A stretch of DNA of 64,000 bases from the NCBI GenBank assembly GCA_903908285.1, contig CAIVRH010000009.1, positions 7,537 through 71,536 on the forward strand, given 5' to 3'. Within the stretch, counting starts at the first letter, position 1. Every line of letters begins with the position of its first letter. The notes beneath the pieces were generated by a model. It had not been told where the DNA came from, searched no databases, and worked only from the letters and a program-made list of their open reading frames with translations. The DNA comes from an uncultured candidate division Zixibacteria bacterium. GTDB taxonomy: Bacteria; Zixibacteria; MSB-5A5; SM1-73. Shown here one piece after another: positions 8,219-56,942 of the stretch. Made by a program: the position numbers and the translations under genes.

Positions 8219-8243
8219 AACCTATCTATCGCATTGCGAAAAT

Positions 8244-8282: not shown

Positions 8283-8315
8283 AGTATTAAATCTTAACGG
8301 TAGCGATCTTTAAAA

Positions 8316-10092: not shown

Positions 10093-10120
10093 ATAATATT
10101 CGGAAAACAAGCTGTGTCAA
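10093..10120 (-). promoter_or_regulatory. Sigma-70-type promoter for the 9914 gene
   Basis: Minus strand TTGACA-N16-TATTAT. Confidence 0.5.
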
Positions 10121-10189
10121 GGGAATTTTTACGTTTGTGGCAACTTGAACTCAACCGATGGGGAATTAAATTATGTTGATTACCATCAT

Positions 10190-10219
10190 AAAAAAGCCCC
10201 CATAAACATCAGGGGGCTT
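10190..10219 (-). terminator. Rho-independent terminator
   Basis: Minus strand AAGCCCCC-loop-GGGGGCTTTTTT, just after the stop at 10241. Confidence 0.7.
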
Positions 10220-10240
10220 GGTTTATTAGGGCAATCAACA

Positions 10241-13621: not shown

Positions 13622-13730
13622 CGAAACTCTCCTTTCAAGTTTGACGAAGCATCAGAAGGCTTATATAATCGATTATCGTCAGTTTCAAGCCATACTTGCA
13701 TTTACAGCCCGTTTAATACCCTCTATCGAT

Positions 13731-13758
13731 ATAATACGCAAAAAGCCGGTTTTGTCAA
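13731..13758 (-). promoter_or_regulatory. Sigma-70-type promoter for the M14 gene
   Basis: Minus strand TTGACA-N16-TATTAT. Confidence 0.5.
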
Positions 13759-13883
13759 TGAGATTTTGGTAAGACTGGCTTATAAACTGCATAAAACCCA
13801 AAAAGTTATTGCAAAATAGAACTTCTCATTTATATTATTATTGTCCTAAATTCAGAAAAACCTTCGGGCGATGGGAGGTTATA

Positions 13884-15683: not shown

Positions 15684-15705
15684 GTGGAAAGGGAGAATTA
15701 AGCTG

Positions 15706-15733
15706 TTGACACAAAGTGATTGCCAGTTAAATT
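15706..15733 (+). promoter_or_regulatory. Sigma-70-type promoter
   Basis: TTGACA-N16-TAAATT upstream of 15781. Confidence 0.5.
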
Positions 15734-15780
15734 GGTAGTGTAGAGGAAAAAAGATTAATTGAAAGTTTGGGGAGGTTTAT

Positions 15781-17547
15781 ATGAGAAGACTGGCTATAAC
15801 CATCGTTCTTCTGCTTCTTCAGTCATACGCTTTTGCAGATACGCATTATGTCTCCAAGACAGGCTCAGACACATATCCTTATACTTCCTGGGGATCCGCG
15901 GCGGATTCCATTCAAAAGGGGATTAATGCTTCTTCTTCCGGTGACACGATCAAAGTAGGAGAAGGGACTTACAGAGAGACTATCACGATGATTCCGGGAA
16001 TAACTTTGCTGGGAAGCGGCATGGACGTTTGTACCATTTATCCGGCAAACCGGAGTGTAAGAGACATAGTTTATGGTGCGGATAGCGCCATCATCGAAGG
16101 TTTTTATGTAAAGGGTTGGCAACCAGGTAAAATGGAATACTGTGTTGGGATTAGATGTAATATTGATTCTAAGATGAAAAGAGTAACTAACAATAAGATT
16201 ACAAACTGTGATTTTGGTATTACTATGGGTACAACTAATACGACAGTTGTAAATAATCTATTAACCGACAATGACGAGGCTATAGCTCCGGATCTTATGT
16301 GCACCGGCTCGATTATTAGCAATACTTTAACACGTAATAGCAGCGGTATATATTTCTTGAGCAGCGCAACTCTTAAAATAATCAAGAACATAGTAAGTGA
16401 CGTGGGAGCATTTGAAGGAATTGCCGGCAGTTTTTTTGATTCAGTTTTTATAGAGAATAATTTGGTTATAGGCGGGCCAGAGGATTATGCCATTGATTTG
16501 AGTAAATTTACCTTTAGTTTTGTTAATGCTCCTGTAAGGAATAATACTGTTTCTGGAAACTCTTGGCATTCTGTAATCTCAGTAACCTTTACCAACGAAA
16601 TCAAGAATAACATGTTTATGAATGGACTTTCCGCTCTGGAAGCCTATCGTTACAGTAGTTACAGTTGCAGTCCACAGGTTTCATACAACAATATGTGGAA
16701 TAACTTAGAAAGTTTTAAAACTGTAAACGGGGCAACCATAGATACCTCTTTGGGCGGGAATATCTATTTGGACCCGATGTTTGTGGGAGGAGATGATTAT
16801 TATCTGCAATATGGCTCTCCTTGCATTAATGCCGGTGATCCCAATATCAAAGACCCGGATTCCTCCAGATCGGATATGGGCTGTTATGGCGGAGCTTATG
16901 GAGACACATACACATATTTAGATTACCCACCAAAACCACCTGATAGTTTATCTGCTGTATCAGAATCAACTATAATCATCCTCAACTGGAAACCGAACAC
17001 CGAATCCGATCTATCTTATTATTTGGTCTATAAAGATACCATAGCCGGGTTTATTCCCGATCCTTCCAAGATTGTCGCTAATATCTCCAAGGATAGCTCT
17101 ATTTTTATTGATTACGATTTCGTTTTGGGAAAAACCTATTACTATCGAGTTTCTGCGTGGGATTTAACCGGGTATCAAAGTGAATATTCGGATGAACTGG
17201 AAGTTAAAGCAACTTCAGTGGATGAATATATAGAACAAGAAAACCATCCCCCGATGTATCAGTTGTCTCAAAACTATCCCAATCCTTTCAATTCGGAGAC
17301 TGTGATCTGGTACTTTCTACCGGATGTGGGCTATCAACCGGCAGAGGTTGAGATTACCATCTATAACCTTTTAGGAAATAGAGTAAAATCCCTGGTGAAT
17401 GGAAGGGAATATCCGGGGGAACATAAAGCTCGATGGGATGCAAAGGACGATTCAGATAATGAGGTGGCATCAGGCATATACTTTTATCGTTTGAAGGTAA
17501 GCGGCTTGGAATTAGTCAAGGCAAAGAAGATGGTGCTGCTAAAATGA
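15781..17547 (+). CDS. Secreted beta-helix, FN3 and T9SS/FlgD-like C-terminal domain protein, paralog 2
   Basis: RBS GGGAGG. Same architecture as 13884-15683, with near-identical N-cap (ADTHY.SK.GSDTYPY.SWG) and C-terminal half (IDTSLGGNIYLDPMFVG...). Confidence 0.8.
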   Translation: MRRLAITIVLLLLQSYAFADTHYVSKTGSDTYPYTSWGSAADSIQKGINASSSGDTIKVGEGTYRETITMIPGITLLGSGMDVCTIYPANRSVRDIVYGADSAIIEGFYVKGWQPGKMEYCVGIRCNIDSKMKRVTNNKITNCDFGITMGTTNTTVVNNLLTDNDEAIAPDLMCTGSIISNTLTRNSSGIYFLSSATLKIIKNIVSDVGAFEGIAGSFFDSVFIENNLVIGGPEDYAIDLSKFTFSFVNAPVRNNTVSGNSWHSVISVTFTNEIKNNMFMNGLSALEAYRYSSYSCSPQVSYNNMWNNLESFKTVNGATIDTSLGGNIYLDPMFVGGDDYYLQYGSPCINAGDPNIKDPDSSRSDMGCYGGAYGDTYTYLDYPPKPPDSLSAVSESTIIILNWKPNTESDLSYYLVYKDTIAGFIPDPSKIVANISKDSSIFIDYDFVLGKTYYYRVSAWDLTGYQSEYSDELEVKATSVDEYIEQENHPPMYQLSQNYPNPFNSETVIWYFLPDVGYQPAEVEITIYNLLGNRVKSLVNGREYPGEHKARWDAKDDSDNEVASGIYFYRLKVSGLELVKAKKMVLLK

Positions 17548-17711
17548 AGTGAAATGAAGAATGCTTTATAACGAATGACGGATAACTAATAAAATCATGA
17601 ACCGGGAATAAAAGAAGAAAAAAGGTTCTTATGTGGAATAATAGACCTTAAACATTACTTTTAGAAACGAATCTTTCTATGACAGATAACCTAAGAGAGG
17701 AGGGGTATAAA

Positions 17712-20700
17712 ATGAAAGCGAATTGGATTTACATAATATTGTCTTTTTTGATTGGTTGTTCAACTTTCTCGATCTGCCAAGGAGCGGATAGATTTTATTA
17801 TGGTGTTTATAATGGCGATCCTCAAACTGAATTTGGATGCATAAAAGATAGTTTGAGGTGTAATATTACTGTTTCTAATGATGTCGATTCAAATAATATC
17901 AATTACTGGGTGACTCATTCACTAAGAGCCATAGTATCAAATTCATCCGATGGAAACTCGCCATTCACATGGTCGGATAGCAGCCATTACACCTTGTGGG
18001 AAAAAGAGAGATATCCGACTTCATATTACCAATTGCAATACAATGGGGGAACGCTGGTTTCGGATCCGAATGCCCATGCCGGCCAAGCCATGAAATTTAG
18101 CAATATTACCACGCCCCAAACTATTCAATGGGGTCCGTCTTATTATCAAGAACCAACATATGAGAGTGGAAGAACTATTGATTATACGGTTGAGTTTCGC
18201 TTGAAGCTTTCTCGTCTCTTTTCTCCCCCGGATCCCCCCGCAGAAAAGAGTGGTAATCCCCCGGTGCCGGTTTGCTCTTTAATAGTAAAGAATATAATTA
18301 CAGGTTCTATCTTGAAAGCTAAAACCATAAACAGAAGCGATTTTCCTCCGAGCGATTACCAAATATTTAAAATAGAAAATTATAACGTGCCTGATACCAA
18401 TAGGATTGATTTTCAAATTTACATGTTCGGAACACCTGCCGTGGCGAAGTTCTATGTTGACTATGTTAAAACTTACAATCGACCTGGAGAAAGGTTAATG
18501 ACCGGTGCGTTTGATCAGGAAATAATAAATTATGTAAGCCAGGGTTGGGTAGGTTCAAGACTTTCAAATGGGGATACGGTGGTTTATCGCTGGTATCTGA
18601 AGGACGAACCTTACTCCATAGACTGTTTTGAACCAAGCAGACATATTGATAGTTTACTTCGGAGGCAAAGCATAGAAAGGGTTGGTTTCCAGACATTCAA
18701 CCAGTGGGGAACTGATCTGGAGCATGAATACTTCTTGAGGCAAAATCCGAAGGAATATAGTATCGACATTTACCCCACGCGTTGGTATGGTCCGGATTCA
18801 TCGGGGGGCAGATTTCAAATTGGGGTAGATACCTTGATCATGTACCTGAATCACTCGAAACAAGCGGCAATAAACAACGGAAAGGATTTATGGGTTACTG
18901 TTCAAGGGCACTTTTATGGAGATAAAGTCAATAGTCCCATTGACTGCCATTATGATGCATTCCATGCGGATACCAGCATAGTTCCTGTATCAGATACAGG
19001 CTGGTATTGCTACCATCTAAACAGACCACCAACCGACAAGGAGGTGAGGCTCCAAACTTTCTTGGCTCTGTGCTATGGAGCTAATTCAATTCTTACCTAT
19101 ATGTATGATTCGTGGATGTCAGTTAACCCCTCCACTGGAACCCTTCAATTGAGGTTAGGTTTATATAACAATATGAAGGGACGCCCCACTGATAGATGGT
19201 ATGAAATTAAAGACTTTACAGGAACCCGGATGGAGAAGCTGGGTCCAATAATTAATAATCTAACCTGGCAGGGTGCATGCTCAAATCAAGAGGTTGGCTC
19301 TTTTATTTTACGTAGCCAACCAAACTACATCGACAGCATTGTTGGAATAAGACATCCTGATTCCACCTATGTGCAGGTGGGGTTCTTTGATCACTTAGAT
19401 ACATCCTACTTCATGTTAGTTAATCGAAAATGTTTAGTAGGAGAGGATGAAACTTTAAAGGTTTATTTCGACATGCCTAATGGACCTTATCTGCTCAGAG
19501 ATATGTACACCAACCAACCATCATATACCTTTTATGCTAATTGTCCTTCTATCATCAGCTTAAAACCCGGTGAAGGAAGACTCTTCCGGATAGAAACTTA
19601 TCCTTTCAGTACCCATGTTAAAAAAGTTCCTCAGCCGTATTCTATTATTCAAAGCGCTATAAATGACGCACAAAATAATGATACAATTCTAGTGGCTCCA
19701 GGGACATATGAAGAGAGAATAAACTTTAATGGGAAACATATTACTGTGGCAAGCTATTATATATTAATGGATGAACAACAATATAAAAACTATACGCGTA
19801 TTGATGCGCACCCAGGTATTAATCCTCCGGATTGTGCCAGTGTGGTTACTTTTTCGTCGGGTGAAGATTCAAATTCTGTATTAGAAGGATTCATGTTAAA
19901 AAATGGGAAGGGCTCTATATCGCGATTTAAATCAGAAGATAGATATGGGGGCGGTATTTACTGCGAGGGGTCATCACCCACCATAAGGAACAATATTATT
20001 CAGGGAAACCAGGCTGATGCGGGGCGATATTCAAGAGGTGGCGGAATATATTGCACCGGCTGTAATCCGGGTCCAATTATTAGTTCTAATCTGATCATAG
20101 GCAACAATTCAATTTATGGTGGAGGTATATGTTGCAATACATCATCTGCCAAAATAGTAGACAACCTGATAATAGAGAATACTGCTTCATCTTTTGAAAA
20201 AGATACCTCTCTGGATGACGGTGGCTATGGCGGGGGGATTGAATGCGATAATAGATCCATGACCACCATTGTAAATAATACCTTGGATGGCAATGATGCA
20301 TACATATATGGGGGTGGAATAGATATCAACGGTCATTCGCATGTTTTATTATACAATAATATAGTTTCAAATACAGATCGAGGAGATGGCATCTATGTCC
20401 ATACCTCGACTGATACTGCACTCATTTCATATAATGACTTTTGGAATAACTTTGAAGATGATATTGATGGAGTCGTAGCTTCTGGAATAGGTAATACCAA
20501 CTGGGGCAATAACCGAAACGGTACTCCTTGTGATTCATTTTACAATATCTTCTGTGATCCTGATTTTGTTAATTACTATCATTTGGATAGTTCCTCTGCC
20601 TGTGTGAATGCCGGTGATAACAACGCACCGGACTTGCCTTTATTTGATTATTACGGGAATCCAAGGATAGTCGATTTTGTGGACATCGGAGCTAGTGAAT

Positions 20701-21074
20701 ATCAAGGAGGAGGTTCCGGTAATAAGAATGCCAAAATCGCTGGCAATACAAATTCAAATAATCCACCTCTTCCCAAAGTTATTCCTAAGGAGTTTGCACT
20801 TTCGCAAAGCTATCCCAATCCATTTAATCCAACAGCTGTAATCGAATTCACGATTGGCAGCGACCACCCGTCCAGCCATATTACTCTAAAAATCTACAAC
20901 ATCGCAGGGCAGTTGGTTAAAACTTTGTTGGATGAAGAGAAGACTCCCGGCACCTTTACAGTAACCTGGGATGGGAAAAACAATTCGAGTGACGAAGTCG
21001 CTTCGGGAATATACTTCTATGAGTTGAAATCCAACAATCTCAGGGAATCTAAGAGGATGGTACTAATAAAGTAA
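17712..21074 (+). CDS. Large secreted protein: putative glycoside-hydrolase-like TIM-barrel region, GGGIYC beta-helix and T9SS/FlgD-like C-terminal domain
   Basis: Start reassigned to the ATG at 17712 (RBS GAGGAGG, signal peptide MKANWIYIILSF...). Motifs RWYLKDEP, SIDIYP, LWVTVQ and RPPTDKEVRLQTFLALCYGA, then Pmp-like GGGIYC repeats. C-terminus YPNPFNP...SGIYFYEL...KRMVLIK. Confidence 0.65.
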   Translation: MKANWIYIILSFLIGCSTFSICQGADRFYYGVYNGDPQTEFGCIKDSLRCNITVSNDVDSNNINYWVTHSLRAIVSNSSDGNSPFTWSDSSHYTLWEKERYPTSYYQLQYNGGTLVSDPNAHAGQAMKFSNITTPQTIQWGPSYYQEPTYESGRTIDYTVEFRLKLSRLFSPPDPPAEKSGNPPVPVCSLIVKNIITGSILKAKTINRSDFPPSDYQIFKIENYNVPDTNRIDFQIYMFGTPAVAKFYVDYVKTYNRPGERLMTGAFDQEIINYVSQGWVGSRLSNGDTVVYRWYLKDEPYSIDCFEPSRHIDSLLRRQSIERVGFQTFNQWGTDLEHEYFLRQNPKEYSIDIYPTRWYGPDSSGGRFQIGVDTLIMYLNHSKQAAINNGKDLWVTVQGHFYGDKVNSPIDCHYDAFHADTSIVPVSDTGWYCYHLNRPPTDKEVRLQTFLALCYGANSILTYMYDSWMSVNPSTGTLQLRLGLYNNMKGRPTDRWYEIKDFTGTRMEKLGPIINNLTWQGACSNQEVGSFILRSQPNYIDSIVGIRHPDSTYVQVGFFDHLDTSYFMLVNRKCLVGEDETLKVYFDMPNGPYLLRDMYTNQPSYTFYANCPSIISLKPGEGRLFRIETYPFSTHVKKVPQPYSIIQSAINDAQNNDTILVAPGTYEERINFNGKHITVASYYILMDEQQYKNYTRIDAHPGINPPDCASVVTFSSGEDSNSVLEGFMLKNGKGSISRFKSEDRYGGGIYCEGSSPTIRNNIIQGNQADAGRYSRGGGIYCTGCNPGPIISSNLIIGNNSIYGGGICCNTSSAKIVDNLIIENTASSFEKDTSLDDGGYGGGIECDNRSMTTIVNNTLDGNDAYIYGGGIDINGHSHVLLYNNIVSNTDRGDGIYVHTSTDTALISYNDFWNNFEDDIDGVVASGIGNTNWGNNRNGTPCDSFYNIFCDPDFVNYYHLDSSSACVNAGDNNAPDLPLFDYYGNPRIVDFVDIGASEYQGGGSGNKNAKIAGNTNSNNPPLPKVIPKEFALSQSYPNPFNPTAVIEFTIGSDHPSSHITLKIYNIAGQLVKTLLDEEKTPGTFTVTWDGKNNSSDEVASGIYFYELKSNNLRESKRMVLIK

Positions 21075-26966: not shown

Positions 26967-27049
26967 TGCCGAAGGTGGGATTTGAACCCACATGCCCGAT
27001 GGGCACTGCGCCCTGAACACAGCGTGTCTGCCAGTTCCACCACTTCGGC
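26967..27049 (-). tRNA. tRNA-Leu(CAG)
   Basis: GCCGAAG...CTTCGGC-A acceptor stem, anticodon arm CTGTG-TTCAGGG-CGCAG, long variable arm, GGTTCAAATCC T-loop. CCA is not encoded. Confidence 0.95.
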
Positions 27050-38361: not shown

Positions 38362-38443
38362 GCGGAAGTGGTGGAACTGGCAGACACACCATCTTGAGGG
38401 GGTGGCGGCGCGAGCCGTGCGGGTTCAAATCCCGCCTTCCGCA
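38362..38443 (+). tRNA. tRNA-Leu(GAG)
   Basis: GCGGAAG...CTTCCGC-A, anticodon arm CCATC-TTGAGGG-GGTGG, long variable arm. CCA is not encoded. Canonical secG-leuU arrangement. Confidence 0.95.
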
Positions 38444-38742
38444 TTATTTTATATAATTACCTATCTCTGTTTTTCAAAACTTCCATTACCGATTTTCTGA
38501 TTTCCACCTCGGGAATTCCATTATCCAATTATCCATTCTCCGGTTAATTCTTTATTCGATTTTGATGGCGAATTCTCAAAATTTTCTTGCTTAAAATAGA
38601 TAAGAGCTTATATTGTTAATAAGGAATGAATGGTTAAAATATGAAGTAATGGTTGATGTAACCCGCATAAGTAATTGTCCATTAATATGTTTCATGTACT
38701 ACAATTGAATATTCCAAGGTTTATAAACAGATGGAGGTAAGA

Positions 38743-48567: not shown

Positions 48568-49857
48568 CTAACTGCTTAAGGGCAATCTGATTTGTACCAT
48601 AGTCCCTTTTCCCAACTTGCTTTCCACCTGGATATCTCCTTGATGTGCCTCCACAATTTTTTTGACCGTGGCCAAACCTAAACCGGTACCCCTTTCTTTG
48701 GTGGTAAAGAAGGGGGTGAATAATTTCTCTTTGGCGGTTTGGCTCATCCCGGTACCGGTATCCGATATCCTCAACCTTAACATTTTTATTTCGGTTTTGT
48801 TGGAATCAAGAACACCGGCTTCTCCATTCAACTCTATCCTGATCTCGCCGCCATGAGGCATGGCTTGGACCGAATTGTGTAAGAGGTTTAATAACACCTG
48901 ACGAAATTGCTCCGGATCCACCCGGCAGTAAAGATCGTTTTGGGAATAGCTCTTCTTTATCCGAACATTGCTTTTATTCCGGGTGGCATCCATTTCAAAG
49001 AAATTAATCGCCTCTTCAATGAAATTGACCAGGTTGGTTATTTTAGGATTAAGCCTAATAGGTTTAGTGTGATCCAACAAACCGAGAACGATTCGATCCA
49101 AAGCCTCCACCCCCTCAATGATTTTTTTGACTAATCTTTTGCGCGGATCCCCGTCCACCAAGTCCCGATCAAGAAGATCTGCAAATCCCCGAATACCTCC
49201 TAAAGGATTTTTTACCTCATGAGCCACCACCGCTGCCATCTCACCTAAGGTGGCTAAGGTCTTCATCCTCAGCATCTCCTCTTCCATTTGCTTTGATCTG
49301 GTCAAATCGAAGAATATTTCTACTGCCCCCAAAATCTCCCCCTCTTGATCCTTGAGCAGCGATGTGGAAAAACTGACAGGTATATTCTTGCCGGTTTGCG
49401 ACTGAATTTCCTTCTCCCCCTTTGCACAGGATTCGGATTCCGACCGGCTCCGTTCATAACATTCAAGGACAAAGGGAAGGGTTAGCTTTTCATCTGCTCC
49501 TTTGCCCATTACCTCCCCATATAGTTTTCCGATAGCCATCTCTGCCCGGTGTCCTAAAATCTCCTCCGCCTTCCGATTAAAAAGGGTTACCTTACCTCCC
49601 AGGTCTATAGCTAGAACCCCGGAGGTTAAACTTTCCAATATATTGGTAAGATACCGGGAAACCTTCTCTTTTTCAACCAGACTCTCCTTTAAGTTTATAT
49701 TGGTCTCCTCCATTTTGCGGTTAAGATCTCCGAATCTATCTTCTAACTCCTGATAAGCAGAGCGTAATTCCTGGGTAACTTGATTAAACGTGGAAAAAGA
49801 TGCAGTCAATTTCTCTATTTCTTCCTCCGAAATATTCCGGCGTGGCTTTTCTTCCAT
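48568..49857 (-). CDS. PAS sensor histidine kinase (FleS/FlrB-like)
   Basis: N-terminal coiled coil, PAS (ILESLTSGVLAID..G.VTLFNR.AE), H-box VAHEVKNPL and GTGLGL. No TM helix. Confidence 0.88.
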   Translation of the reverse strand: MEEKPRRNISEEEIEKLTASFSTFNQVTQELRSAYQELEDRFGDLNRKMEETNINLKESLVEKEKVSRYLTNILESLTSGVLAIDLGGKVTLFNRKAEEILGHRAEMAIGKLYGEVMGKGADEKLTLPFVLECYERSRSESESCAKGEKEIQSQTGKNIPVSFSTSLLKDQEGEILGAVEIFFDLTRSKQMEEEMLRMKTLATLGEMAAVVAHEVKNPLGGIRGFADLLDRDLVDGDPRKRLVKKIIEGVEALDRIVLGLLDHTKPIRLNPKITNLVNFIEEAINFFEMDATRNKSNVRIKKSYSQNDLYCRVDPEQFRQVLLNLLHNSVQAMPHGGEIRIELNGEAGVLDSNKTEIKMLRLRISDTGTGMSQTAKEKLFTPFFTTKERGTGLGLATVKKIVEAHQGDIQVESKLGKGTMVQIRLPLSS

Positions 49858-50118: not shown

Positions 50119-50445
50119 TTATCCCGGATTATCTGCCGTTAGGATTTTCTGTATTTTATCTTCGATTATCATGATTTGCTTAGTCTTTTCAACAATTTGC
50201 GAGAGTAGAATTTTAACACCCGCCAGATCTTGCAAATTGGGATCTTTTCCGCTGGTTATTTCGGTTGCCGAAATCCTATCGGTTAACCGAGCAATATTCC
50301 GGGCAACTACCTGTTTTTGTTCAAGAAGGGTGAGGATATCAACCGGTGATCCTTCATTCTCTAATTCCGACAAAATAGTTCTGGATAGTATTAAAACCTG
50401 GTCATAATCATTCAATATGTTATTGTATTCTTCCAAAAGGCTCAT
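50119..50445 (-). CDS. Small all-helical protein (FliT/FlgN-like)
   Basis: 108 aa, heptad-rich (LLEQKQVVARNI). The family call is tentative. Confidence 0.55.
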   Translation of the reverse strand: MSLLEEYNNILNDYDQVLILSRTILSELENEGSPVDILTLLEQKQVVARNIARLTDRISATEITSGKDPNLQDLAGVKILLSQIVEKTKQIMIIEDKIQKILTADNPG

Positions 50446-50492: not shown

Positions 50493-50963
50493 TTACTCGG
50501 AGAGACCGGTTATATTATGGGAGTCTGTAACTCTATGCAGTTTGGCTTCCAATTCAGTAATCCGATTCCTAAGTTTTCCTATTTCGGTTCTTAGCTTATG
50601 TTCCTGAAAAGCGTTTTCAATTGAAGATTTTAAGTCGTTCAATTTAAAAGGCTTTATAACATAATCACAAGCTCCGTAACGCAGCGCCTCAATGGAGCTT
50701 TCAATAGTCGGATATCCGGTCATGATGATGGCTATGGCATCGGGAGCGGTTTTCTTTATTTGTTTTAAGGCTTCGATTCCATCCATTCCCGACATCTTAA
50801 GATCCAGTAAAATCACGTCTGCTGTTTGGATGCTCATCATTTGAACTGCTTTTTCACCGGAATCTGCTAAGATCACCTCGTAACCCTGGGTACTCAAAAA
50901 CTCCAAAAGCAACTCCCGCACAAAGAGCTCATCATCTACCACTAAGATTTTTTCGGAAGACAT
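50493..50963 (-). CDS. Single-domain response regulator with C-terminal coiled coil
   Basis: VVDDE, LLDLKM, MTGY and KPF motifs, then a short coiled-coil tail. Confidence 0.9.
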   Translation of the reverse strand: MSSEKILVVDDELFVRELLLEFLSTQGYEVILADSGEKAVQMMSIQTADVILLDLKMSGMDGIEALKQIKKTAPDAIAIIMTGYPTIESSIEALRYGACDYVIKPFKLNDLKSSIENAFQEHKLRTEIGKLRNRITELEAKLHRVTDSHNITGLSE

Positions 50964-51308
50964 AATTGGTACCTGGTCCGGTCAGTCAAAGATACGTTCA
51001 GGCGCGACAAGCTTAGATTACAAGGTAGCTTACTTTTTACCACAATATAGATGCTGATTATTGTTGTTTCTATATTCCAGAAAACTCATTTAAAGAAAAA
51101 AGGCGTCGAAAGACTGTCAGGTTTTGTCGGTAGTCCATATATATCCGATTTCTAAATTAGCCGGTTTATCTTATCGATCACACCCTACTTATTAATTATC
51201 GTTACTTAGCTGGAAAATCTTGAGTTTTACTGCTCGTAGGTTATGTTCCGAAGTCAAAATATTAATTATTTGTTCAGATTCGACACTATTTTCGTCCGTA
51301 ATTAATCC

Positions 51309-53129
51309 TTATATCTGCTTAATTCTTCTTTTTCCTCTTATTCTTGAATGTGATCCTTTGCGTTTGCCCTTGGATTTATTTTCCCTCCTGTTTTTGCTTC
51401 TGACAAGCTTGCCGATCTCCCTTCTCAATATCTCCTCGATACTTTTTTGAGTTTCATCCGGTTCCAACAAAGCCAGTTTCAATACTTCTTCAATTCGCTC
51501 CACGAAGATGAATTTGGTTTCATTCCTGATCTTATCCGGCAGATCCAGCAGATTCTTCTCGTTCCCCTTGGGAAATATCACGATGCGAATTCCCACCCGA
51601 TGAGCTGCGGATGCTTTCTCTCTTACTCCCGCCACCGGTATTAATCTCCCTCGCAAAGAGACCTCCCCGGACATAGCCAGGTCATTTCGTATGGGCTTGT
51701 TACTCATCACTGAAGCTATGACTAAAGAGACAGTGATACCGGCAGAAGGTCCGTCCTTGGGAATGGCACCGGATGGAAAATGAATGTGGATATCATTACT
51801 GGTGAAATCATCATAGTTTATTCCCAATATTTCCGCTTTTGAGCGAACATAACTATGAGCCGCCTGAATCGACTCTTTCATCACCTCCCCCAACTGCCCC
51901 GTAGAAATCACCTGTCCATTCCCTTTCATCTTTAAGGCTTCAATCAACATCAGGTCTCCGCCGGCTTCGGTCCAAGCCAATCCAATAGCTACCCCAATCT
52001 CCGGCTTTTTAGGAATTATATCGGGTATGTAAACCGGATTACCTAAATATTCCTCCAGGTTATCCACCGTAACCACGAACGGAGAAAAAACCTGGGAGGT
52101 TTTGGCGCGAGCGCAACGCCGACAGATATTCTCCATCTCCCTCTGCAGGCTTCTGATCCCCGCTTCCACCGTGTATTGCCGAATTACTTTTTTTAAGGCT
52201 CCATCCGTAAATCGAAGGTCCTGATCGGTCAAGCCATGCCTTTTCAACAACATGGGCAGGATGAATTTCTTGGCGATCTCCAACTTTTCTTCCTCAATAA
52301 AACCGGAGAATTCGATGATTTCCACAAAGTCTTGCAGCGATGCTGGTATCTCATCTGCAACCAGAGCGGTGGTCACGAAAATTGTATCCGAAAGATCATA
52401 GGGCAATCCTAAATAGTGATCAAAGAAATTTGAATTCCTCTCCGGTTCCAAAGCTTCAGTCAGAGCAGTGGCCGGATCGCCTTTCAGGCTCTCGGTCGCC
52501 ATCTTGTCGATATTCTCTATCATGATTAAAGGATTAGGACACCCTGCCTCTTTAATGGCATTTATAATTTTCCCGGGAAATGCCTCGGTGAAGGTGGAAC
52601 GTGTCCCCTTGATTTCAGCTTCGTCTCTCACTCCCGACACGCTAACCCTCACAAATTTCCGGTCCAATGCTTTGGCTAGGGCAATACCCAGGGAGGTCTT
52701 ACCCGTGCCGGCGGGACCTGCAAAACACAGGACTATCCCCTTCAAGTCTTTTTTTAGCTTTCTAACACTGAAAAGCTGGAGGATATTTTCCTTAACCTTT
52801 TCCTGCCCAAAAAATTCCTCTTTTAAGATTCCCTCCAATTTGCTTATATCCACCTCCCCGCAGCTTTCTTTTTTCCAGGGAAGCGACAAAAACCAGTCTA
52901 TATGGGTTGTCACCATGCCATATTCCGCTGAGGCGGTGGAGATCAATCTTAACCTTTCCGCTTCCAGAAATGCTTGCTTTTTCACATAGGGAGGGAGAGA
53001 TGCCGCTTTAATCTTTTCTTTTAACCCAACCACTTCTTTTTCCTGAAGCCCTGCTTCTCCCCATTCCACCTGGTTTATTTTCGACTCTTTACGGTAATTT
53101 TGATTCTTCGCTTTTCGGTTCAAGTTCAC
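51309..53129 (-). CDS. Lon-family (S16) protease lacking the N-terminal domain, with degenerate AAA+ module
   Basis: Walker A GPAGTGKT, RDEAEI, DHYL and PKDGPSAG (Ser), G..EK (Lys). Walker B reads IENID. Confidence 0.88.
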   Translation of the reverse strand: MNLNRKAKNQNYRKESKINQVEWGEAGLQEKEVVGLKEKIKAASLPPYVKKQAFLEAERLRLISTASAEYGMVTTHIDWFLSLPWKKESCGEVDISKLEGILKEEFFGQEKVKENILQLFSVRKLKKDLKGIVLCFAGPAGTGKTSLGIALAKALDRKFVRVSVSGVRDEAEIKGTRSTFTEAFPGKIINAIKEAGCPNPLIMIENIDKMATESLKGDPATALTEALEPERNSNFFDHYLGLPYDLSDTIFVTTALVADEIPASLQDFVEIIEFSGFIEEEKLEIAKKFILPMLLKRHGLTDQDLRFTDGALKKVIRQYTVEAGIRSLQREMENICRRCARAKTSQVFSPFVVTVDNLEEYLGNPVYIPDIIPKKPEIGVAIGLAWTEAGGDLMLIEALKMKGNGQVISTGQLGEVMKESIQAAHSYVRSKAEILGINYDDFTSNDIHIHFPSGAIPKDGPSAGITVSLVIASVMSNKPIRNDLAMSGEVSLRGRLIPVAGVREKASAAHRVGIRIVIFPKGNEKNLLDLPDKIRNETKFIFVERIEEVLKLALLEPDETQKSIEEILRREIGKLVRSKNRRENKSKGKRKGSHSRIRGKRRIKQI

Positions 53130-53306
53130 CCCTCAAAGATAAGGTATGTTGGTAATGGCTGTGTTATATTGATTTCGGCATTCAAGCTTTCGATAATTAA
53201 TCTTATACCCAATATTCTATTGCATCACTGAAGACTTTGTAAACCATTTATGGTTAATAGCGATAAAGAAAGCATAAGGATCCTCATGTTCCCTTGGGTT
53301 GGGGAA

Positions 53307-55004
53307 TCACATTCTTTCCGGAGCTTCTATCCCCAACAGTGAAAGTCCGTTTTTAAGGGTACTTTGAATAGCTTTAACAAGAAACATGCGGGCATCAGTT
53401 AAACCAGCTTCTTCAGTGATGATTCTGTGCTGTTGGTAGAAACGATTGAAGTTTGCGCATAGATCGATTAAAAAAGTACAGATATACGAAGGCTCATAGT
53501 TCTCTGCGGCAAACTTGATCATCCGGGGGAAACTCTCCAACAATTTGATAAGGGTGATTTCCTCATCGGTGCTAATAACTCTATAGTCAACTTCCTTACC
53601 TATAGGTTTTTCATATTTCCTCATCAAACTGCACAATCGAGCATGGGTATATTGCACGTAAGGAGCGGACTCGCCATCGAAGGAGAGAGCCTGGTCCCAG
53701 TCAAAGTCGATATCTTTGTTCCGGCGGGTAGATAAGTCGGCAAAGATCACCGCTCCTATTCCCACTTCCTTTGCTACCTCTTCCTTATTTTCCAATTCCG
53801 GATTTTTCTCCTCTATGATTCTCCGGGAAAGCTCAATGGATTTGTTCAAAACGTCTTCCAAAAGGATTATGTTCCCTTTCCGGGTGGACATCATCTCCTG
53901 TTTGAACTTGATCCAACCAAAATCGACATGAACACAATCATATGCCCATTGGTATCCCATCAACTCCAACACCTTGAACAGTTGTTGGAAGTGAAGTTTC
54001 TGGGCTGTTCCTACGACGTAAAGTGATTTGTAAAAATGATAGGTATTGTAACGGTAAATAGCTGCGGCGATATCCCTGGTTGCATATAGGGTGGCCTCAT
54101 CCTTTTTCCTCAAAAGACAAGGAGGCATCCCAAACCTCTCCAGATTGACAACCAAAGCGTCTTGGCTTATTTCCGCCAATCCTTTACCTTTGATCTCCTG
54201 AATGGTTGGTTCCATTTGATCATTATAGAAGCTCTCCCCGGCAATAGCATCGAATTCTATTCCCAGGATCCGGTATACCCGGTTGAATTCCTCCAAACTG
54301 TAGGATCTGAATTTCTCCCATAACGCTTTCGCCTCACGATCTCCGTCTTCCAGTTTTTTGAACCATAAACGTGCTTCTTCCTCCAGCTTGGGATCTTTTT
54401 CCTCCTCCCGGTGGAATCTGACATAGAGATCGTAGAGAGTAGCGATGGGGTCTTTAATCAACTCATTTTCATCCCCCCACATCTTATAAGCCAGAATTAC
54501 CTTACCAAATTGAGTCCCCCAATCTCCCAGATGATTGATGCGAACCGTTTTGAATCCAAGCTTTGTGAAAATATGATACAGGCTGTTACCAATCACTGTG
54601 GTTCTCAAGTGTCCGATTCCAAAGGGTTTAGCGATGTTGGGTGAAGAAAAATCAATCAGGATGGTTTTGTCATTACCCGTGTTATCTGACCCATAATTCT
54701 CTCCCTGTTCGAAAATCAAAGAGAGCACAGATTCAGCTAATCGAGTTTTGCTTACTTTAAAATTCAAATAAGGACCGATGGAATAGATCTCCTGAATCAA
54801 TTCCGTAGGCTTAAATCGGGAAGCAAGATCAGTGGCAATCTGGTTTGGGGCTTTTTTCAATTTTTTGCTTAAAACGAAACAGGGGAAAGCATAATCCCCT
54901 AATTTCTCGTCTGGGGGAACCTCTACTGAATCTCTGATCTCTTGTTCCGGGATATCAACCATCGCGGATATCATTTTTATTATGTCATCTACAAATATAT
55001 TCAT
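53307..55004 (-). CDS. argS: Arginine--tRNA ligase
   Basis: FSSPNIAKPFGIGHLR (HIGH), NHLGDWGTQFG, MSTRKG and G..APYVQY.HAR. Confidence 0.97.
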   Translation of the reverse strand: MNIFVDDIIKMISAMVDIPEQEIRDSVEVPPDEKLGDYAFPCFVLSKKLKKAPNQIATDLASRFKPTELIQEIYSIGPYLNFKVSKTRLAESVLSLIFEQGENYGSDNTGNDKTILIDFSSPNIAKPFGIGHLRTTVIGNSLYHIFTKLGFKTVRINHLGDWGTQFGKVILAYKMWGDENELIKDPIATLYDLYVRFHREEEKDPKLEEEARLWFKKLEDGDREAKALWEKFRSYSLEEFNRVYRILGIEFDAIAGESFYNDQMEPTIQEIKGKGLAEISQDALVVNLERFGMPPCLLRKKDEATLYATRDIAAAIYRYNTYHFYKSLYVVGTAQKLHFQQLFKVLELMGYQWAYDCVHVDFGWIKFKQEMMSTRKGNIILLEDVLNKSIELSRRIIEEKNPELENKEEVAKEVGIGAVIFADLSTRRNKDIDFDWDQALSFDGESAPYVQYTHARLCSLMRKYEKPIGKEVDYRVISTDEEITLIKLLESFPRMIKFAAENYEPSYICTFLIDLCANFNRFYQQHRIITEEAGLTDARMFLVKAIQSTLKNGLSLLGIEAPERM

Positions 55005-55268: not shown

Positions 55269-56942
55269 ATGAATCCCAAAAAAATCTTTGTGGTTATGAT
55301 GGCTTTGGTGCTTGCTATATTTGTTATTTCCTTAGCCTCAGCTTTTGCCCAGGTTGACACTGCCTGGGTAAGAAGATACAAGAGAGGCGATTATGCTTCC
55401 GCTATAGCTGTAGATAGTTCTGGTAATGTCTATGTGACGGGAGCAGGTGCGGGCTATGCGACCATAAAGTATCATCCTAATGGAGATAGCGCTTGGGCGA
55501 GAAGCTACAATGGAGGTGATGACGCTTACAGTATAGCCGTAGATGCTTCTGGTAATGTCTATGTGACGGGATTAGGTAATGGATGGGATTATGCCACCAT
55601 AAAGTATCTTCCCAATGGAGACACTGCCTGGGTGAGAAGATACGAGGGATCAGCTCATTCCTACGATGCAGCTTATGCCATAGCAGTTGATGGTTTTGGC
55701 AATGTTTATGTGACAGGGGAAAGTGACGATAGTGTGACAGATGCTGACTATGCCACCATAAAATATTATTCCAATGGAGATACTGTCTGGGTGAGAAGAT
55801 ACGATGGGCGAGGAGGTGGTCGGGATTTGGCAATTGATATAGCGGTAGATAGGTCGGGCAATGTCTATGTGACTGGAAGGAGTTTGACATTTGGTGACTG
55901 CGCTACGATAAAGTATTATCCTAATGGAGACACTGCCTGGGTGAGAAGATATAATGAATCTGGAAATACTTATGAAAGTGGCTGGGCCATAACTGTGGAT
56001 AGTTCTGGTTATGTCTATGTCACTGGGGGAGGTGACAGCAGTGGGACGTTTGACTATCTCACTATAAAATATTATCCCAATGGAGATATTGCTTGGGTGA
56101 GAACATACAACGGACCGGGAAACGGGATTGATGATGCTAGTGCCATAGCTGTAGATCGTTCTGGTAATGTCTATGTGACTGGATATAGTGAAGGTGTTGG
56201 AACGTTTGAAGACTATGCCACCATTAAGTATTATTCCGATGGGGGTACTGCCTGGGTAACAAGATACAATGGACCTGGAGACTCTTCCGATTGGGCTAAT
56301 GCAATAACCTTAGATGGTTCTGGTAATGTTTATGTGACAGGCGAAAGTTGGGACACGACAAGCTCTGATTATGCTACTATAAGGTATGATTCATTAGGAA
56401 ATGAGATTTGGGTAAAAAGATACAATGGATCGCGAAATGAGGATGATTATGCCATCGCTATAGCAGTAGATGATTCTACCAATGTGTATGTAACGGGATC
56501 AAGTGGGTTTGACTGGGACTATGTAACCATAAAGTATATTCAGCCAAGCATCAATGTTATTTCACCAAACGGGGGAGAGATTTGGAGCGGTGGTTACCAG
56601 TACTATATTAGATGGTCTTCTGGGAAGTTTGTTGGAGACATTAAAATAGATTACTCTATTAACAGCGGAGCGAGTTTTGATTCTCTAATTTGTTCGAATT
56701 GTCCAAACACTGGCCAATTTCTCTGGACAATACCCTGCAACGTGTCTTCTAACTACTGTCGGGTTCGAGTGTGTGATGCAGCAGACTGTGTTCCAGCAGA
56801 CACAAGCAATGCTGATTTCACCATCACTTACTGTGTTCCCGTATTAACCAACTACGGAATCATTGTTTTGCTCATCCTTATGGTAAGCTCAACCATTTGG
56901 ATTATGAGAAGAAAGAAGTTAATCTCACAGAGAAACATATAG
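55269..56942 (+). CDS. Surface protein: eight SBBP beta-propeller repeats, SPNGGE Ig domain and IPTL-CTERM-like anchor
   Basis: RBS AAGGAGG and signal peptide. Eight W.R.Y....AIAVD.SGNVYVTG...YATIKY repeats. C-terminus VPVLTNYG-TM-RRKK. Confidence 0.85.
   Translation: MNPKKIFVVMMALVLAIFVISLASAFAQVDTAWVRRYKRGDYASAIAVDSSGNVYVTGAGAGYATIKYHPNGDSAWARSYNGGDDAYSIAVDASGNVYVTGLGNGWDYATIKYLPNGDTAWVRRYEGSAHSYDAAYAIAVDGFGNVYVTGESDDSVTDADYATIKYYSNGDTVWVRRYDGRGGGRDLAIDIAVDRSGNVYVTGRSLTFGDCATIKYYPNGDTAWVRRYNESGNTYESGWAITVDSSGYVYVTGGGDSSGTFDYLTIKYYPNGDIAWVRTYNGPGNGIDDASAIAVDRSGNVYVTGYSEGVGTFEDYATIKYYSDGGTAWVTRYNGPGDSSDWANAITLDGSGNVYVTGESWDTTSSDYATIRYDSLGNEIWVKRYNGSRNEDDYAIAIAVDDSTNVYVTGSSGFDWDYVTIKYIQPSINVISPNGGEIWSGGYQYYIRWSSGKFVGDIKIDYSINSGASFDSLICSNCPNTGQFLWTIPCNVSSNYCRVRVCDAADCVPADTSNADFTITYCVPVLTNYGIIVLLILMVSSTIWIMRRKKLISQRNI

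What the first reader, a model, noticed from the sequence alone, without database searches (positions are those of the whole stretch)
51309..53129. Lon-like protease with a dead-looking AAA+ motor but intact Ser-Lys dyad
Seen, compared with canonical LonA: there is no N-terminal substrate domain. Walker A is intact (GPAGTGKT). Walker B hhDE is changed to MIEN (52512-52517, catalytic Glu to Asn). Sensor-1 T(A/S)N becomes TAL, the Arg finger LLDRME becomes LQDFVE (52326-52328), and the pore loop RTYIG becomes STFTE. Sensor-2 (GIR), catalytic Ser (PKDGPSAG) and Lys (GVREK) are retained. Several coordinated losses in an intact ORF suggest selection for a nucleotide-binding, non-hydrolysing protease. 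It could be an ATP-gated peptidase or a modulatory subunit of mixed Lon hexamers, and it sits directly upstream of the signalling cluster.
Basis: partly seen in the sequence, partly recalled or inferred. Interest (0 to 1): 0.75.

Follow-up and report, generated by a model that had tools for sequence, protein, structure and literature searches.

The report
Lon protease with disabled ATP motor
This Zixibacteria gene encodes a Lon-type protease whose cutting site is perfectly kept but whose ATP-burning residues have been replaced in every ortholog and held that way by selection, so it looks like a natural, LonA-derived counterpart of the rare ATP-independent LonC proteases.

Summary
ORF 51309-53129 (-) encodes a 606-aa LonA-type protein with no N-terminal domain. 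Walker A (GPAGTGKT) and the Ser462/Lys505 dyad are intact. Walker B is DE->EN, sensor-1 is N->L, the Arg finger is R->F, and pore loop 1 is altered.

It is not a decaying gene. All 61 orthologs (>=70% identity, Zixibacteria) have Walker B D->E, lack the catalytic Glu (Q/P/N/G/H) and lack the Arg finger (L/F/H). Walker A and the dyad are invariant. dN/dS is about 0.03-0.12. The AAA+ core is relaxed relative to the protease domain (divergence ratio 1.7, against 0.36-0.49 in two canonical LonA control groups).

Most orthologs keep the N domain (821 aa). It has been lost or shortened repeatedly at the same locus, so its absence is a lineage trait. The gene always sits upstream of a response regulator, small ORF, PAS kinase and sigma-54 activator.

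The best reading is a nucleotide-binding but hydrolysis-incompetent, ATP-independent Ser-Lys protease. It is functionally like LonC but derived from LonA. No biochemistry exists, the mixed-hexamer idea is untested, and whether a canonical Lon co-occurs could not be resolved. I rate it a new variant of a known kind, of moderate to high interest.

The parts
51309..53129 (-). Complete ORF, 606 aa: LonA-type protease without an N domain and with degenerate ATPase catalytic residues. GTG start at 53129; possible TTG start at 53123.
   Evidence: AF2 model pLDDT 85.8 and TM 0.92 to Y. pestis LonA 6on2_D
52752..53129 (-). Residues 1-126: tail of the long helix plus the three-helix bundle (NTD3H) that precedes the AAA+ module. 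Homology to the 821-aa orthologs starts at their residue 226.
52695..52718 (-). Walker A GPAGTGKT (residues 138-145). G138, G143, K144 and T145 are invariant in 61/61 orthologs.
52572..52607 (-). Pore loop 1 GTRSTFTEAFPG (residues 175-186). The aromatic residue is kept (Y57/F3/H1). The canonical RRTYVG is replaced by a new clade-conserved RSTYTE.
52512..52529 (-). Walker B LIMIEN (residues 201-206). D->E at 205 in 61/61 orthologs. The catalytic Glu at 206 is replaced (Q47/P5/N4/G4/H1; Asn here).
52362..52364 (-). Sensor-1 position (residue 256), Leu instead of Asn. It varies among orthologs (L29/N19/S12/Q1).
52326..52334 (-). Arg-finger segment Q266-D-F268. Both canonical arginines (LRDRME) are lost. 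Position 268 is L58/F2/H1 in orthologs, against R in 238/238 canonical LonA.
52152..52154 (-). Sensor-2 Arg326 (EAGIR), kept as a basic residue in orthologs (R33/K27/N1). The neighbouring lid Arg (TREAG) is replaced by Val321.
51465..52073 (-). S16 protease domain (residues 353-555). Catalytic Ser462 (51744-51746) is preceded by Pro (A-type centre) and Lys505 (51615-51617) follows. Both are invariant, and this is the most conserved part of the protein.
51312..51461 (-). Clade-specific C-terminal extension: a conserved helix (IEEILRREIGKLV) followed by a polybasic, predicted-disordered tail (median 16 K/R in 46 aa among orthologs).
53130..53306 (-). 177-nt spacer between argS and the gene. It occupies the place where orthologs encode the 225-residue N-terminal region. 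It holds no remnant of that region and contains a sigma-70-like match TTTACA-18-TAGAAT (53243-53214).
50493..50963 (-). Single-domain response regulator (receiver plus short coiled coil). It is the conserved downstream neighbour in all ortholog loci.
50119..50445 (-). Conserved 108-aa helical ORF of no known family, between the response regulator and the kinase.
47087..49857 (-). PAS histidine kinase (48568-49857) and NtrC-type sigma-54 activator (47087-48484), conserved in synteny with the protease gene.
51195..51224 (-). Conserved intergenic block CTCAAGA-N17-CGATAAT upstream of the response-regulator gene. CGATAA is invariant in 8 ortholog loci. It is possibly that operon's own promoter.

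Best explanation
The gene encodes a LonA-derived 'pseudo-ATPase' protease. It keeps the LonA fold (three-helix bundle, AAA+ alpha/beta and lid subdomains, S16 protease domain) and a fully intact A-type Ser462-Lys505 catalytic centre. It also keeps an intact P-loop and a basic sensor-2, so it probably still binds a nucleotide, or at least phosphate.

The residues that carry out and coordinate ATP hydrolysis are replaced. These are the Walker B Asp-Glu, sensor-1 Asn, the trans-acting Arg finger and its neighbouring Arg, and the lid Arg. The protein therefore most likely cannot run the ATP-driven hand-over-hand unfolding cycle.

The likely mode of action is a ring-shaped chambered peptidase that degrades unfolded, disordered or adaptor-delivered substrates without burning ATP. 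Nucleotide would act at most as an assembly or allosteric ligand, as reported for LonC and as seen with canonical Lon and non-hydrolysable analogues.

Its strictly conserved position next to a response regulator, small ORF, PAS kinase and sigma-54 activator suggests a regulatory role in that signalling pathway. In this lineage the substrate-binding N domain, which is the least constrained part in orthologs, has been deleted.

Shown here by computation: sequence states, their conservation, purifying selection, relative relaxation of the AAA+ core, predicted fold, synteny and recurrent N-domain loss. Inferred: loss of hydrolysis, retained nucleotide binding, ATP-independent proteolysis and the link to the signalling genes.
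For: - All substitutions are confirmed against solved LonA sequences and at codon level.
- In 61 orthologs: Walker A G/G/K/T 61/61; Walker B D->E 61/61; catalytic Glu absent 61/61; Arg finger absent 61/61; Pro-Ser462 and Lys505 61/61; sensor-2 R/K 60/61. The same positions are invariant and canonical in 238 LonA from Gemmatimonadaceae and Nitrospirota.
- Purifying selection: window versus L005 dN/dS is 0.055 overall, 0.10 in AAA alpha/beta and 0.017 in the protease domain. Other pairs give AAA 0.06-0.12 and protease 0.03-0.05.
- Constraint has shifted. The divergence ratio AAA alpha/beta: protease is 1.69 in the clade, against 0.49 and 0.36 in the canonical controls.
- Of 68 AAA alpha/beta positions invariant in canonical LonA, 19 are lost and 7 are switched. 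Of 76 such positions in the protease domain, 4 are lost and 8 are switched, mostly conservatively. No compensating new Arg appears in the AAA module.
- The AF2 model is confident (pLDDT 85.8, pTM 0.75) and superposes on LonA chains with target-normalised TM up to 0.92.
- The Lon -> RR -> small ORF -> HK -> sigma-54 EBP synteny holds in every ortholog locus with downstream sequence, including one where the upstream gene differs.
- There is a precedent for an ATPase-dead, ATP-independent Lon protease: LonC (PMC3391209, PMC13069640, PMC9569914).
- The roles of Arg484, sensor II Arg541, and pore-loop Tyr397 and Trp431 in LonA are described in PMC8503904.
Against: - There are no biochemical data for any member.
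- Walker B keeps an acidic residue (Glu205, invariant), and pore loop 1 keeps a conserved aromatic residue within a newly conserved motif. Some nucleotide-dependent pore movement, or very slow hydrolysis, therefore cannot be excluded.
- LonC, the analogy, turned out to bind only phosphate in structures (PMC13069640), so 'nucleotide-binding' may be too strong.
- The conserved block in the 345-nt gap before the response-regulator gene looks like a separate promoter. The link to the signalling genes therefore rests on adjacency only.
- No RNA data were found.
- I could not determine whether the same genomes also have a canonical LonA.
Confidence: 0.62

Rival explanations
1. It is a modulatory subunit. 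The protein co-assembles with a canonical LonA into mixed hexamers, where hydrolysis-dead protomers tune the motor, as inactive subunits do in some hetero-oligomeric AAA+ rings.
For: The Walker A motif, the LonA-type ring-forming domains and the predicted fold are all kept. The protease-domain surface is highly conserved. Hetero-oligomeric AAA+ proteases exist (m-AAA AFG3L2/SPG7, PMC5835776, listed).
Against: - No canonical LonA gene is present in the 64-kb window or next to any ortholog.
- No canonical LonA attributable to Zixibacteria was found. The closest canonical sequences were Nitrospirota, Gemmatimonadaceae and Chloroflexota.
- Loss of the trans-acting Arg finger would poison the neighbouring active site in a mixed ring.
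- Recurrent N-domain loss and a clade-specific C-terminal tail point to an independent particle.
- LonA hetero-hexamers are not documented, to my knowledge.
Confidence: 0.12
2. It is still an ATP-dependent protease that uses non-canonical catalytic chemistry. Glu205 would serve as both metal ligand and base, and sensor-2 Arg/Lys would substitute for the Arg finger.
For: Glu205 is invariant (61/61). Sensor-2 stays basic (60/61). The pore-loop-1 aromatic residue and the DPE base loop are largely kept. The AAA module is still under purifying selection (omega about 0.06-0.12).
Against: - Four to six independent catalytic or coordinating residues are lost together: E206, N256, R266, R268, R321 and the pore-loop-2 aromatic.
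- Position 206 is freely variable, including Pro and Gly. The most frequent state, Gln, is the classic hydrolysis-dead trap substitution.
- No new conserved Arg appears in the AAA module.
- The AAA core is 3.4- to 4.7-fold less constrained relative to the protease domain than in canonical LonA.
Confidence: 0.1
3. It is a decaying pseudogene or relic of lon, an N-terminally truncated copy on its way out.
For: The N domain is deleted and several catalytic motifs are mutated in this copy.
Against: - The 606-codon ORF is intact.
- dN/dS is 0.055 overall and 0.017 in the protease domain.
- The same substitutions are fixed across 61 ortholog clusters and 13 GTDB species.
- N-less forms have persisted and diversified (23 clusters, 574-636 aa).
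Confidence: 0.01
4. It is a phage-defence Lon-like protein of the BrxL/BREX type, or another defence-associated AAA+/Lon fusion.
For: There is a weak PADLOC hit to BrxL (49.8 bits) confined to the protease domain, and a weak DolB hit to the P-loop region.
Against: - The full-length match is to TIGR00763 LonA (630 bits), against 35.9 bits for BrxL TIGR02653.
- The neighbours are argS and two-component/sigma-54 genes, not BREX genes.
- The chromosomal synteny is stable across species.
Confidence: 0.01

Closest known systems
Canonical LonA (endopeptidase La; TIGR00763; MEROPS S16.001), e.g. E. coli, B. subtilis, M. taiwanensis LonA
   Same: - The same domain order and fold from the three-helix bundle onward. 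Best PDB sequence hit is 3m6a at E 9e-153, and model TM is up to 0.92.
- An A-type protease centre with Pro before the catalytic Ser, and 42 residues between Ser and Lys.
- 60 residues between the Walker A Lys and the Walker B acidic residue.
- It passes the curated TIGR00763 cut-off.
- Most orthologs have the LonA N domain.
   Different: - Walker B DE->E[QNPGH], Arg finger R->L/F, the second Arg of LRDRME lost, sensor-1 variable, lid Arg->Val, and the pore-loop-2 aromatic ->Leu.
- The AAA core is no longer the most conserved part.
- There is a clade-specific polybasic C-terminal extension.
- In this copy the whole N domain is deleted.
LonC (MtaLonC / TTC1975; MEROPS S16.007)
   Same: It is a Lon-family protease whose ATPase-centre residues have been replaced. 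It has no ATPase activity and degrades unfolded proteins ATP-independently. It keeps a P-loop that binds nucleotide or phosphate and has no LonA N domain (PMC3391209, PMC13069640, PMC9569914). This is the closest functional analogue.
   Different: - LonC has LonB-like domains, with Asp rather than Pro before the catalytic Ser and a helical-hairpin insertion in the AAA module.
- Its Walker A is degenerate (GPPSLGKHE).
- It is known from a few thermophiles (8 MEROPS members).
- Sequence similarity to the query is marginal and limited to the protease domain (E about 4e-4).
- The loss of ATPase function here is therefore an independent, LonA-derived event.
Engineered LonA variants: Walker-B Glu->Gln trap mutants and N-terminally truncated constructs (e.g. 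Y. pestis 6on2, B. subtilis 3m6a, MtaLonA 4ypl)
   Same: The natural protein combines the same two changes that experimenters introduce: a hydrolysis-dead Walker B (Gln is the commonest state in orthologs) and a start near LonA residue 225-250. These constructs are the top structural and sequence matches.
   Different: The laboratory mutants keep the Arg finger, sensor-1 and pore loops and are derived from working motors. Here the changes are multiple, ancient and fixed by selection.
LonB / LonBA / BrxL
   Same: They share the S16 protease fold and a P-loop AAA module.
   Different: - There is no membrane-anchor insertion. The Walker A-B spacing is 60 residues, not 82 as in LonBA (PMC9569914).
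- The protease centre is A-type.
- Scores are far below the cut-offs: LonB TIGR00764 107.8 against 516.6, and BrxL 35.9 against 628.

Membership tests
LonA (endopeptidase La) | A single chain with an AAA+ module followed by an S16 protease domain, and a score above the curated family cut-off | tested here: met
   Pfam AAA + Lon_lid + Lon_C. TIGR00763 scores 630.5 bits against a cut-off of 608.05.
LonA (endopeptidase La) | A-type protease centre: Pro precedes the catalytic Ser, and Ser and Lys are separated by 42 residues (PMC9569914) | tested here: met
   PKDGP-S462 and K505, with 42 residues between them. This is invariant in 61 orthologs.
LonA (endopeptidase La) | A-type AAA module with 60 residues between the Walker A Lys and the Walker B Asp and no inserted domain (PMC9569914) | tested here: met
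   K144 and E205 have 60 residues between them. The alignment to 3m6a is contiguous.
LonA (endopeptidase La) | Extended N-terminal region (beta-rich N domain plus helical HI(CC) region) | tested here: not met
   There is no PF02190 and the alignment starts at LonA residue about 225. Only the NTD3H part remains. The feature is met in 33 of 61 orthologs.
LonA (endopeptidase La) | Catalytic ATPase residues: Walker B Asp-Glu, sensor-1 Asn, Arg finger, sensor-2 Arg (EcLonA D423/E424, N473, R484, R542; PMC9569914) | tested here: not met
   The residues are E205/N206, L256, F268 and R326, so only sensor-2 is kept.
LonA (endopeptidase La) | ATP-hydrolysis-dependent degradation of folded proteins | not testable with these tools
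   This requires enzymology.
LonC (ATP-independent Lon-like protease) | B-type protease centre (Asp before the catalytic Ser) and LonB-like AAA module with a helical-hairpin extension (PMC9569914, PMC13069640) | tested here: not met
   Pro461 precedes Ser462. No insertion is present. The PDB match to MtaLonC has E about 4e-4 and covers the protease domain only.
LonC (ATP-independent Lon-like protease) | Essential ATPase-centre residues replaced while the P-loop Lys is kept | tested here: met
LonC (ATP-independent Lon-like protease) | No ATPase activity, with ATP-independent proteolysis of unfolded substrates | not testable with these tools
   This is inferred only, from the sequence states.
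LonB / LonBA | Membrane-anchoring insertion in the AAA module (LonB), or 82-residue Walker A-B spacing with a short unrelated N fragment (LonBA) | tested here: not met
   The spacing is 60 residues. TIGR00764 scores 107.8 against a cut-off of 516.6, and TIGR02902 scores 90.6 against 723.3.
BrxL (BREX Lon-like) | A full-length BrxL profile match and a BREX gene neighbourhood | tested here: not met
   TIGR02653 scores 35.9 bits against a cut-off of 628. PADLOC BrxL scores 49.8 bits on the protease domain only. The neighbours are argS and two-component genes.

The most novel reading that the evidence does not exclude
Zixibacteria and related FCB-group phyla have evolved a whole radiation of LonA-derived pseudo-ATPase proteases, all annotated as ordinary 'endopeptidase La'. 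The clade found here would be a dedicated, energy-independent regulatory protease wired to a phosphorelay. The adjacent single-domain response regulator would act as a phosphorylation-dependent adaptor or as a substrate (as RssB and CpdR do for ClpXP), controlling a sigma-54 activator. In some of these genomes such degenerate forms might be the only Lon present.
Probability: 0.15. Interest if true: 0.8.

Novelty: new variant of a known kind. Interest (0 to 1): 0.6.

Why it matters
Lon is the textbook single-chain ATP-dependent protease. The only described natural ATPase-dead Lon, LonC, comes from the LonB side of the family and is known from a handful of thermophiles. This is an independent and much more populous case inside LonA itself.

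Selection has fixed the same kind of change that experimenters use to kill the motor (Walker B Glu->Gln, loss of the Arg finger), while keeping the P-loop, the pore-loop aromatic residue and the protease perfectly. It then repeatedly discarded the substrate-binding N domain.

That gives a natural series for several questions:
- What does a Lon chamber do without its motor?
- What does nucleotide binding alone contribute?
- How are substrates selected? The conserved two-component/sigma-54 neighbourhood supplies candidate partners.

There is also an annotation point. All these proteins pass the TIGR00763 equivalog threshold and are named ATP-dependent endopeptidase La, so the class is invisible in current annotation.

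Tried and rejected
1. Looking for a canonical LonA in the same genomes.
- Two of the three large protein searches went to the canonical sequences closest to the query. P0156 turned out to be Gemmatimonadaceae and P0114 Nitrospirota/Thermodesulfovibrionales.
- Contig look-ups of P0114, P0118 and P0099 and cluster-name look-ups gave no genome overlap and no canonical LonA labelled Zixibacteria.
- Co-occurrence stays unresolved. The two sets were reused as controls for domain-wise conservation.

2. N-domain remnant.
- tblastn of the ortholog N region against the window spacer and against L001 found nothing.
- The 151-aa ORF that fills the gap in L001 is unrelated to the N domain.

3. Sigma-54 promoter search (TGGCAC-N5-TTGCW, up to 2 mismatches): 23 hits against 22.3 expected, and none in the relevant intergenic regions.

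4. Rfam on the whole window found only two tRNAs.

5. RNA-seq evidence: no runs were listed.

6. Defence-system reading: rejected.

7. The 108-aa neighbour has no Pfam, NCBIfam, PADLOC or PDB match. It contains no His, so it is not an Hpt protein.

8. The genome-contig scan is pattern-based. Its failure to return a canonical Zixibacteria LonA, or a second paralog in the 13 clade genomes, is not evidence of absence.

9. The tree is a BLOSUM-distance neighbour-joining tree without support values. It is used only for grouping.
Full report
WHAT IS IN THE SEQUENCE

The ORF at 51309..53129 on the minus strand is intact and encodes 606 aa from a GTG start. A TTG two codons downstream (53123), preceded by GAGGGG, is an equally plausible start. 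Pfam finds an AAA domain (134-271), the Lon lid (296-343) and the S16 Lon_C protease domain (353-555), but no LON N-terminal domain. The NCBIfam LonA equivalog TIGR00763 scores 630.5 bits, above its cut-off of 608.05, and aligns only to model positions 234-795.

The best solved-structure sequence match is the N-terminally truncated B. subtilis LonA construct 3m6a (E 9e-153), followed by full-length LonA proteins aligned from about residue 225 onward.
- Walker A GPAGTGKT is intact.
- Pore loop 1 changes from GHRRTYVG to GTRSTFTE.
- Walker B changes from LLDEIDK to MIENIDK.
- Sensor-1 changes from TAN to TAL.
- The Arg finger changes from LRDRME to LQDFVE.
- Sensor-2 EAGIR, PKDGPSAG and GVREK are kept.

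Upstream there are only 177 nt before argS (53307-55004), with no trace of an N domain by tblastn. Independent unitigs from a freshwater-sediment run cover the junction at 100% identity.

IS IT MORE THAN CHANCE OR DECAY?

The 120 best homologs are nearly all from Zixibacteria MAGs. Tabulating the motif columns shows the substitutions are shared. I defined the orthologous group as the 61 sequences at >=70% identity, and compared it with 238 canonical LonA sequences from Gemmatimonadaceae and Nitrospirota (retrieved). One search gives these counts:
- Walker A G138/G143/K144/T145: 61/61 in orthologs and 238/238 in canonical LonA.
- Walker B first acidic residue: Glu in 61/61 orthologs, Asp in 238/238 canonical.
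- Catalytic Glu: replaced in 61/61 orthologs (Q47, P5, N4, G4, H1).
- Sensor-1: L29/N19/S12/Q1 in orthologs, Asn in 238/238 canonical.
- Arg finger: L58/F2/H1 in orthologs, Arg in 238/238 canonical.
- The preceding Arg of LRDRME: lost in 60/61 orthologs.
- Lid Arg of TREAG: replaced by Val or Ile.
- Sensor-2: kept basic (R33/K27).
- Pro-Ser462 and Lys505: 61/61.

Among the 149 50%-identity representatives closest to the query in an exhaustive HMMER scan, 135 are canonical at Walker B, sensor-1 and the Arg finger.

Nei-Gojobori estimates give dN/dS = 0.055 for the window gene against its closest relative (L005, 90% identity). By domain this is 0.10 in the AAA alpha/beta subdomain and 0.017 in the protease domain. 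In eleven longer orthologs, the pairs with unsaturated dS give AAA about 0.06-0.12 and protease about 0.03-0.05. This is strong purifying selection, so the pseudogene alternative is excluded.

A SHIFT OF CONSTRAINT

In canonical LonA the AAA alpha/beta subdomain is the most conserved part. At comparable overall divergence, the ratio of AAA to protease-domain divergence is 0.49 in Gemmatimonadaceae and 0.36 in Nitrospirota. In the clade it is 1.69.

Of 68 AAA alpha/beta positions that are invariant in the 238 canonical sequences, the clade keeps 42, switches 7 to a new conserved residue and loses 19. Of 76 such positions in the protease domain, 64 are kept, 8 are conservatively switched and 4 are lost. 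No new conserved arginine appears in the AAA module.

Pore loop 1 is not degraded but re-fixed as RSTYTEAFPG, with the aromatic residue kept (Y57/F3/H1). The pore-loop-2 aromatic residue (Trp431 in MtaLonA, PMC8503904) is an invariant Leu. The picture is of a module that has lost the constraints of a hydrolysis cycle but is still needed, plausibly for P-loop ligand binding, ring assembly and lining the axial channel.

FOLD

An AlphaFold2 model built on a 53-sequence alignment is confident (mean pLDDT 85.8, pTM 0.75). Only the linker at 558-563 and the last 18 residues fall below pLDDT 50. The model superposes on LonA chains with target-normalised TM-scores up to 0.92 (Y. pestis 6on2_D, rmsd 2.8 A; E. 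coli 6u5z; MtaLonA 4ypl). Residues 2-42 form one long helix, which is the tail of the LonA coiled-coil helix, followed by the three-helix bundle.

THE N DOMAIN IS A LINEAGE CHARACTER

The ortholog in L003 is 821 aa with PF02190 and sits in the same argS-lon-RR locus. The window protein aligns to its residues 226-806 at 81% identity without gaps.

Among the 61 orthologs, 33 are >=800 aa, 5 are 700-799 aa and 23 are <640 aa. Contig-internal examples of all three states occur at the same locus: 821 aa (L003), 712 aa (L099) and 578 aa (L100). In the distance tree the window, P0001 and P0002 group next to an 827-aa protein (P0004). The 574-636-aa forms make a separate group, so there were at least two full losses plus a partial one. 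In long orthologs the N region evolves 3-6 times faster (omega about 0.15-0.6) than the rest. Loss of the motor and erosion of the substrate-recognition domain go together.

CONTEXT

Every ortholog locus with downstream sequence has the same order: Lon-like gene, single-domain response regulator, a roughly 108-aa ORF of no known family, a PAS histidine kinase and an NtrC-type sigma-54 activator. This holds even in the closed genome CP070839.1, where the upstream gene is a TPR protein rather than argS.

The other degenerate or canonical Lon loci do not have this neighbourhood. The 180-470-nt gap before the response-regulator gene contains a conserved block, CTCAAGA-N17-CGATAAT, with CGATAA invariant in 8 loci. 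It may be a separate promoter, so the association rests on conserved adjacency, not shown co-transcription. No sigma-54 promoter match beyond chance was found. The window comes from a freshwater-sediment organism.

A clade-specific C-terminal extension is conserved. It consists of a helix (IEEILRREIGKMVK) plus a polybasic tail with a median of 16 K/R in 46 residues.

MECHANISM

In LonA the Arg finger of the neighbouring protomer and sensor II position the gamma-phosphate for hydrolysis, and the pore-loop Tyr and Trp grip the substrate in a spiral staircase (PMC8503904). EcLonA numbering for the consensus elements is in PMC9569914.

With the catalytic Glu, the Arg finger and (here) sensor-1 gone, ATP hydrolysis and the hand-over-hand cycle are very unlikely. 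With the P-loop and a basic sensor-2 invariant, binding of nucleotide or phosphate is likely. From my own knowledge of the Lon literature, not from a tool result here, nucleotide binding without hydrolysis suffices to activate peptide and unstructured-protein cleavage by canonical Lon. LonC shows that a Lon chamber without ATPase activity works as an ATP-independent protease of unfolded proteins and as a chaperone. [quoted passage not shown]

I therefore favour an ATP-independent, possibly ligand-gated, chambered protease acting on disordered or delivered substrates, probably within the adjacent signalling pathway (confidence about 0.6).

The rivals, in order of remaining plausibility:
- A modulatory subunit of mixed hexamers (about 0.12). 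This is untested because co-occurrence with a canonical LonA could not be established.
- A non-canonical but working ATPase (about 0.10).
- A pseudogene (about 0.01). Refuted.
- A defence-system protein (about 0.01). Refuted.

COMPARISON WITH THE KNOWN

By domain order, A-type protease centre, Walker A-B spacing and profile score, the protein belongs to the LonA lineage. It fails two defining LonA features: the N-terminal region (in this copy) and the catalytic ATPase residues.

It works like LonC but is not a LonC. LonC has B-type domains, Asp before the catalytic Ser and a helical-hairpin insertion, and it matches the query only marginally.

Literature searches found no description of a LonA-type clade with replaced ATPase-centre residues, and nothing on Zixibacteria Lon. 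A 2022 survey of the family recognises A, B, C and BA types, with LonC as the only ATPase-dead group (8 MEROPS members).

All the degenerate forms tested pass the TIGR00763 cut-off and are named endopeptidase La in public records. I rate it a new variant of a known kind.

WIDER OBSERVATION

The genome-collection scan and the motif tables show several other degenerate LonA clades in Zixibacteria, Eisenbacteria, Calditrichota and other FCB-group MAGs:
- GxxGTGKA with Walker B Glu-Asp, sensor-1 Arg/Lys, Arg finger kept and sensor-2 Leu.
- Walker B Glu-Asp with sensor-1 Asp, no Arg finger and no pore-loop aromatic residue.
- Eisenbacteria with Asp-Gly.

The clade studied here is one branch of a larger, unannotated radiation.

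LIMITS

- There is no biochemistry and no expression data.
- The tree is a distance tree without support values.
- dS is saturated for many pairs.
- The genome scan is pattern-based.
- Whether these genomes have a canonical LonA remains open.

Noticed in passing
loci L020-L065 (e.g. L037 CP070674.1 6001-7731; L049 CP070766.1; L050/L051/L058/L065 Eisenbacteria); proteins P0062-P0110, P0115 and P0120: There are several further clades of LonA-type proteins with different combinations of degenerate ATPase motifs in Zixibacteria, Eisenbacteria, Calditrichota and other FCB-group MAGs. Examples are Walker A GxxGTGKA with Walker B Glu-Asp and sensor-2 Leu; Glu-Asp with no Arg finger and no pore-loop aromatic residue; and Asp-Gly. 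None sits next to the RR/HK/sigma-54 cluster.
   Followed up: partly
L003 8001-10466; L099 4001-6139; L100 6001-7737; L001 7231-7686: The same argS-lon locus holds three length states of the gene: 821, 712 and 574-606 aa. In L001 and L007 an unrelated 151-aa ORF occupies the place of the lost N domain. In L092 a 169-aa ORF sits between argS and a full-length gene.
   Followed up: partly
window 51195-51224 (-): A conserved block CTCAAGA-N17-CGATAAT lies in the long spacer between the Lon-like gene and the response-regulator gene. CGATAA is invariant in 8 ortholog loci. It may be the promoter of the signalling operon.
   Followed up: partly
window 50119-50445 (-): A 108-aa predicted helical ORF is conserved in synteny (33-56% identity) between the response regulator and the PAS kinase. 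It has no Pfam, NCBIfam, PADLOC or PDB match and contains no histidine, so it is not an Hpt protein.
   Followed up: partly
window 51312-51461 (-): The Lon-like protein has a clade-specific C-terminal extension: a conserved helix followed by a Lys/Arg-rich disordered tail. It could bind nucleic acid, polyphosphate or membrane.
   Followed up: partly
window 51309-53129; P0007, P0099, P0107: All degenerate Lon paralogs tested exceed the TIGR00763 'equivalog' cut-off and are named ATP-dependent endopeptidase La in public records. Automated annotation hides the loss of ATPase residues.
   Followed up: yes
window 41154-46392 (-): A second signalling set lies directly downstream: a GAF histidine kinase (44953-46392), a receiver-GAF hybrid kinase (42802-44886) and a second sigma-54 activator (41154-42617). 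It is also present in ortholog loci L003 and L006.
   Followed up: no
window 5048-21074, 38731-40884 and 55269-56942: The window holds a cluster of very large secreted proteins with T9SS C-terminal sorting domains and FlgD-Ig domains. It also holds an M14 carboxypeptidase and a C25 (gingipain-like) peptidase that both carry dockerin domains, two NosD/beta-helix proteins, and an SBBP beta-propeller repeat protein.
   Followed up: no
window 26967-27049 (-) and 38362-38443 (+): There are two tRNA genes of 82-83 nt (long-variable-arm size). These were the only Rfam matches in the window.
   Followed up: no
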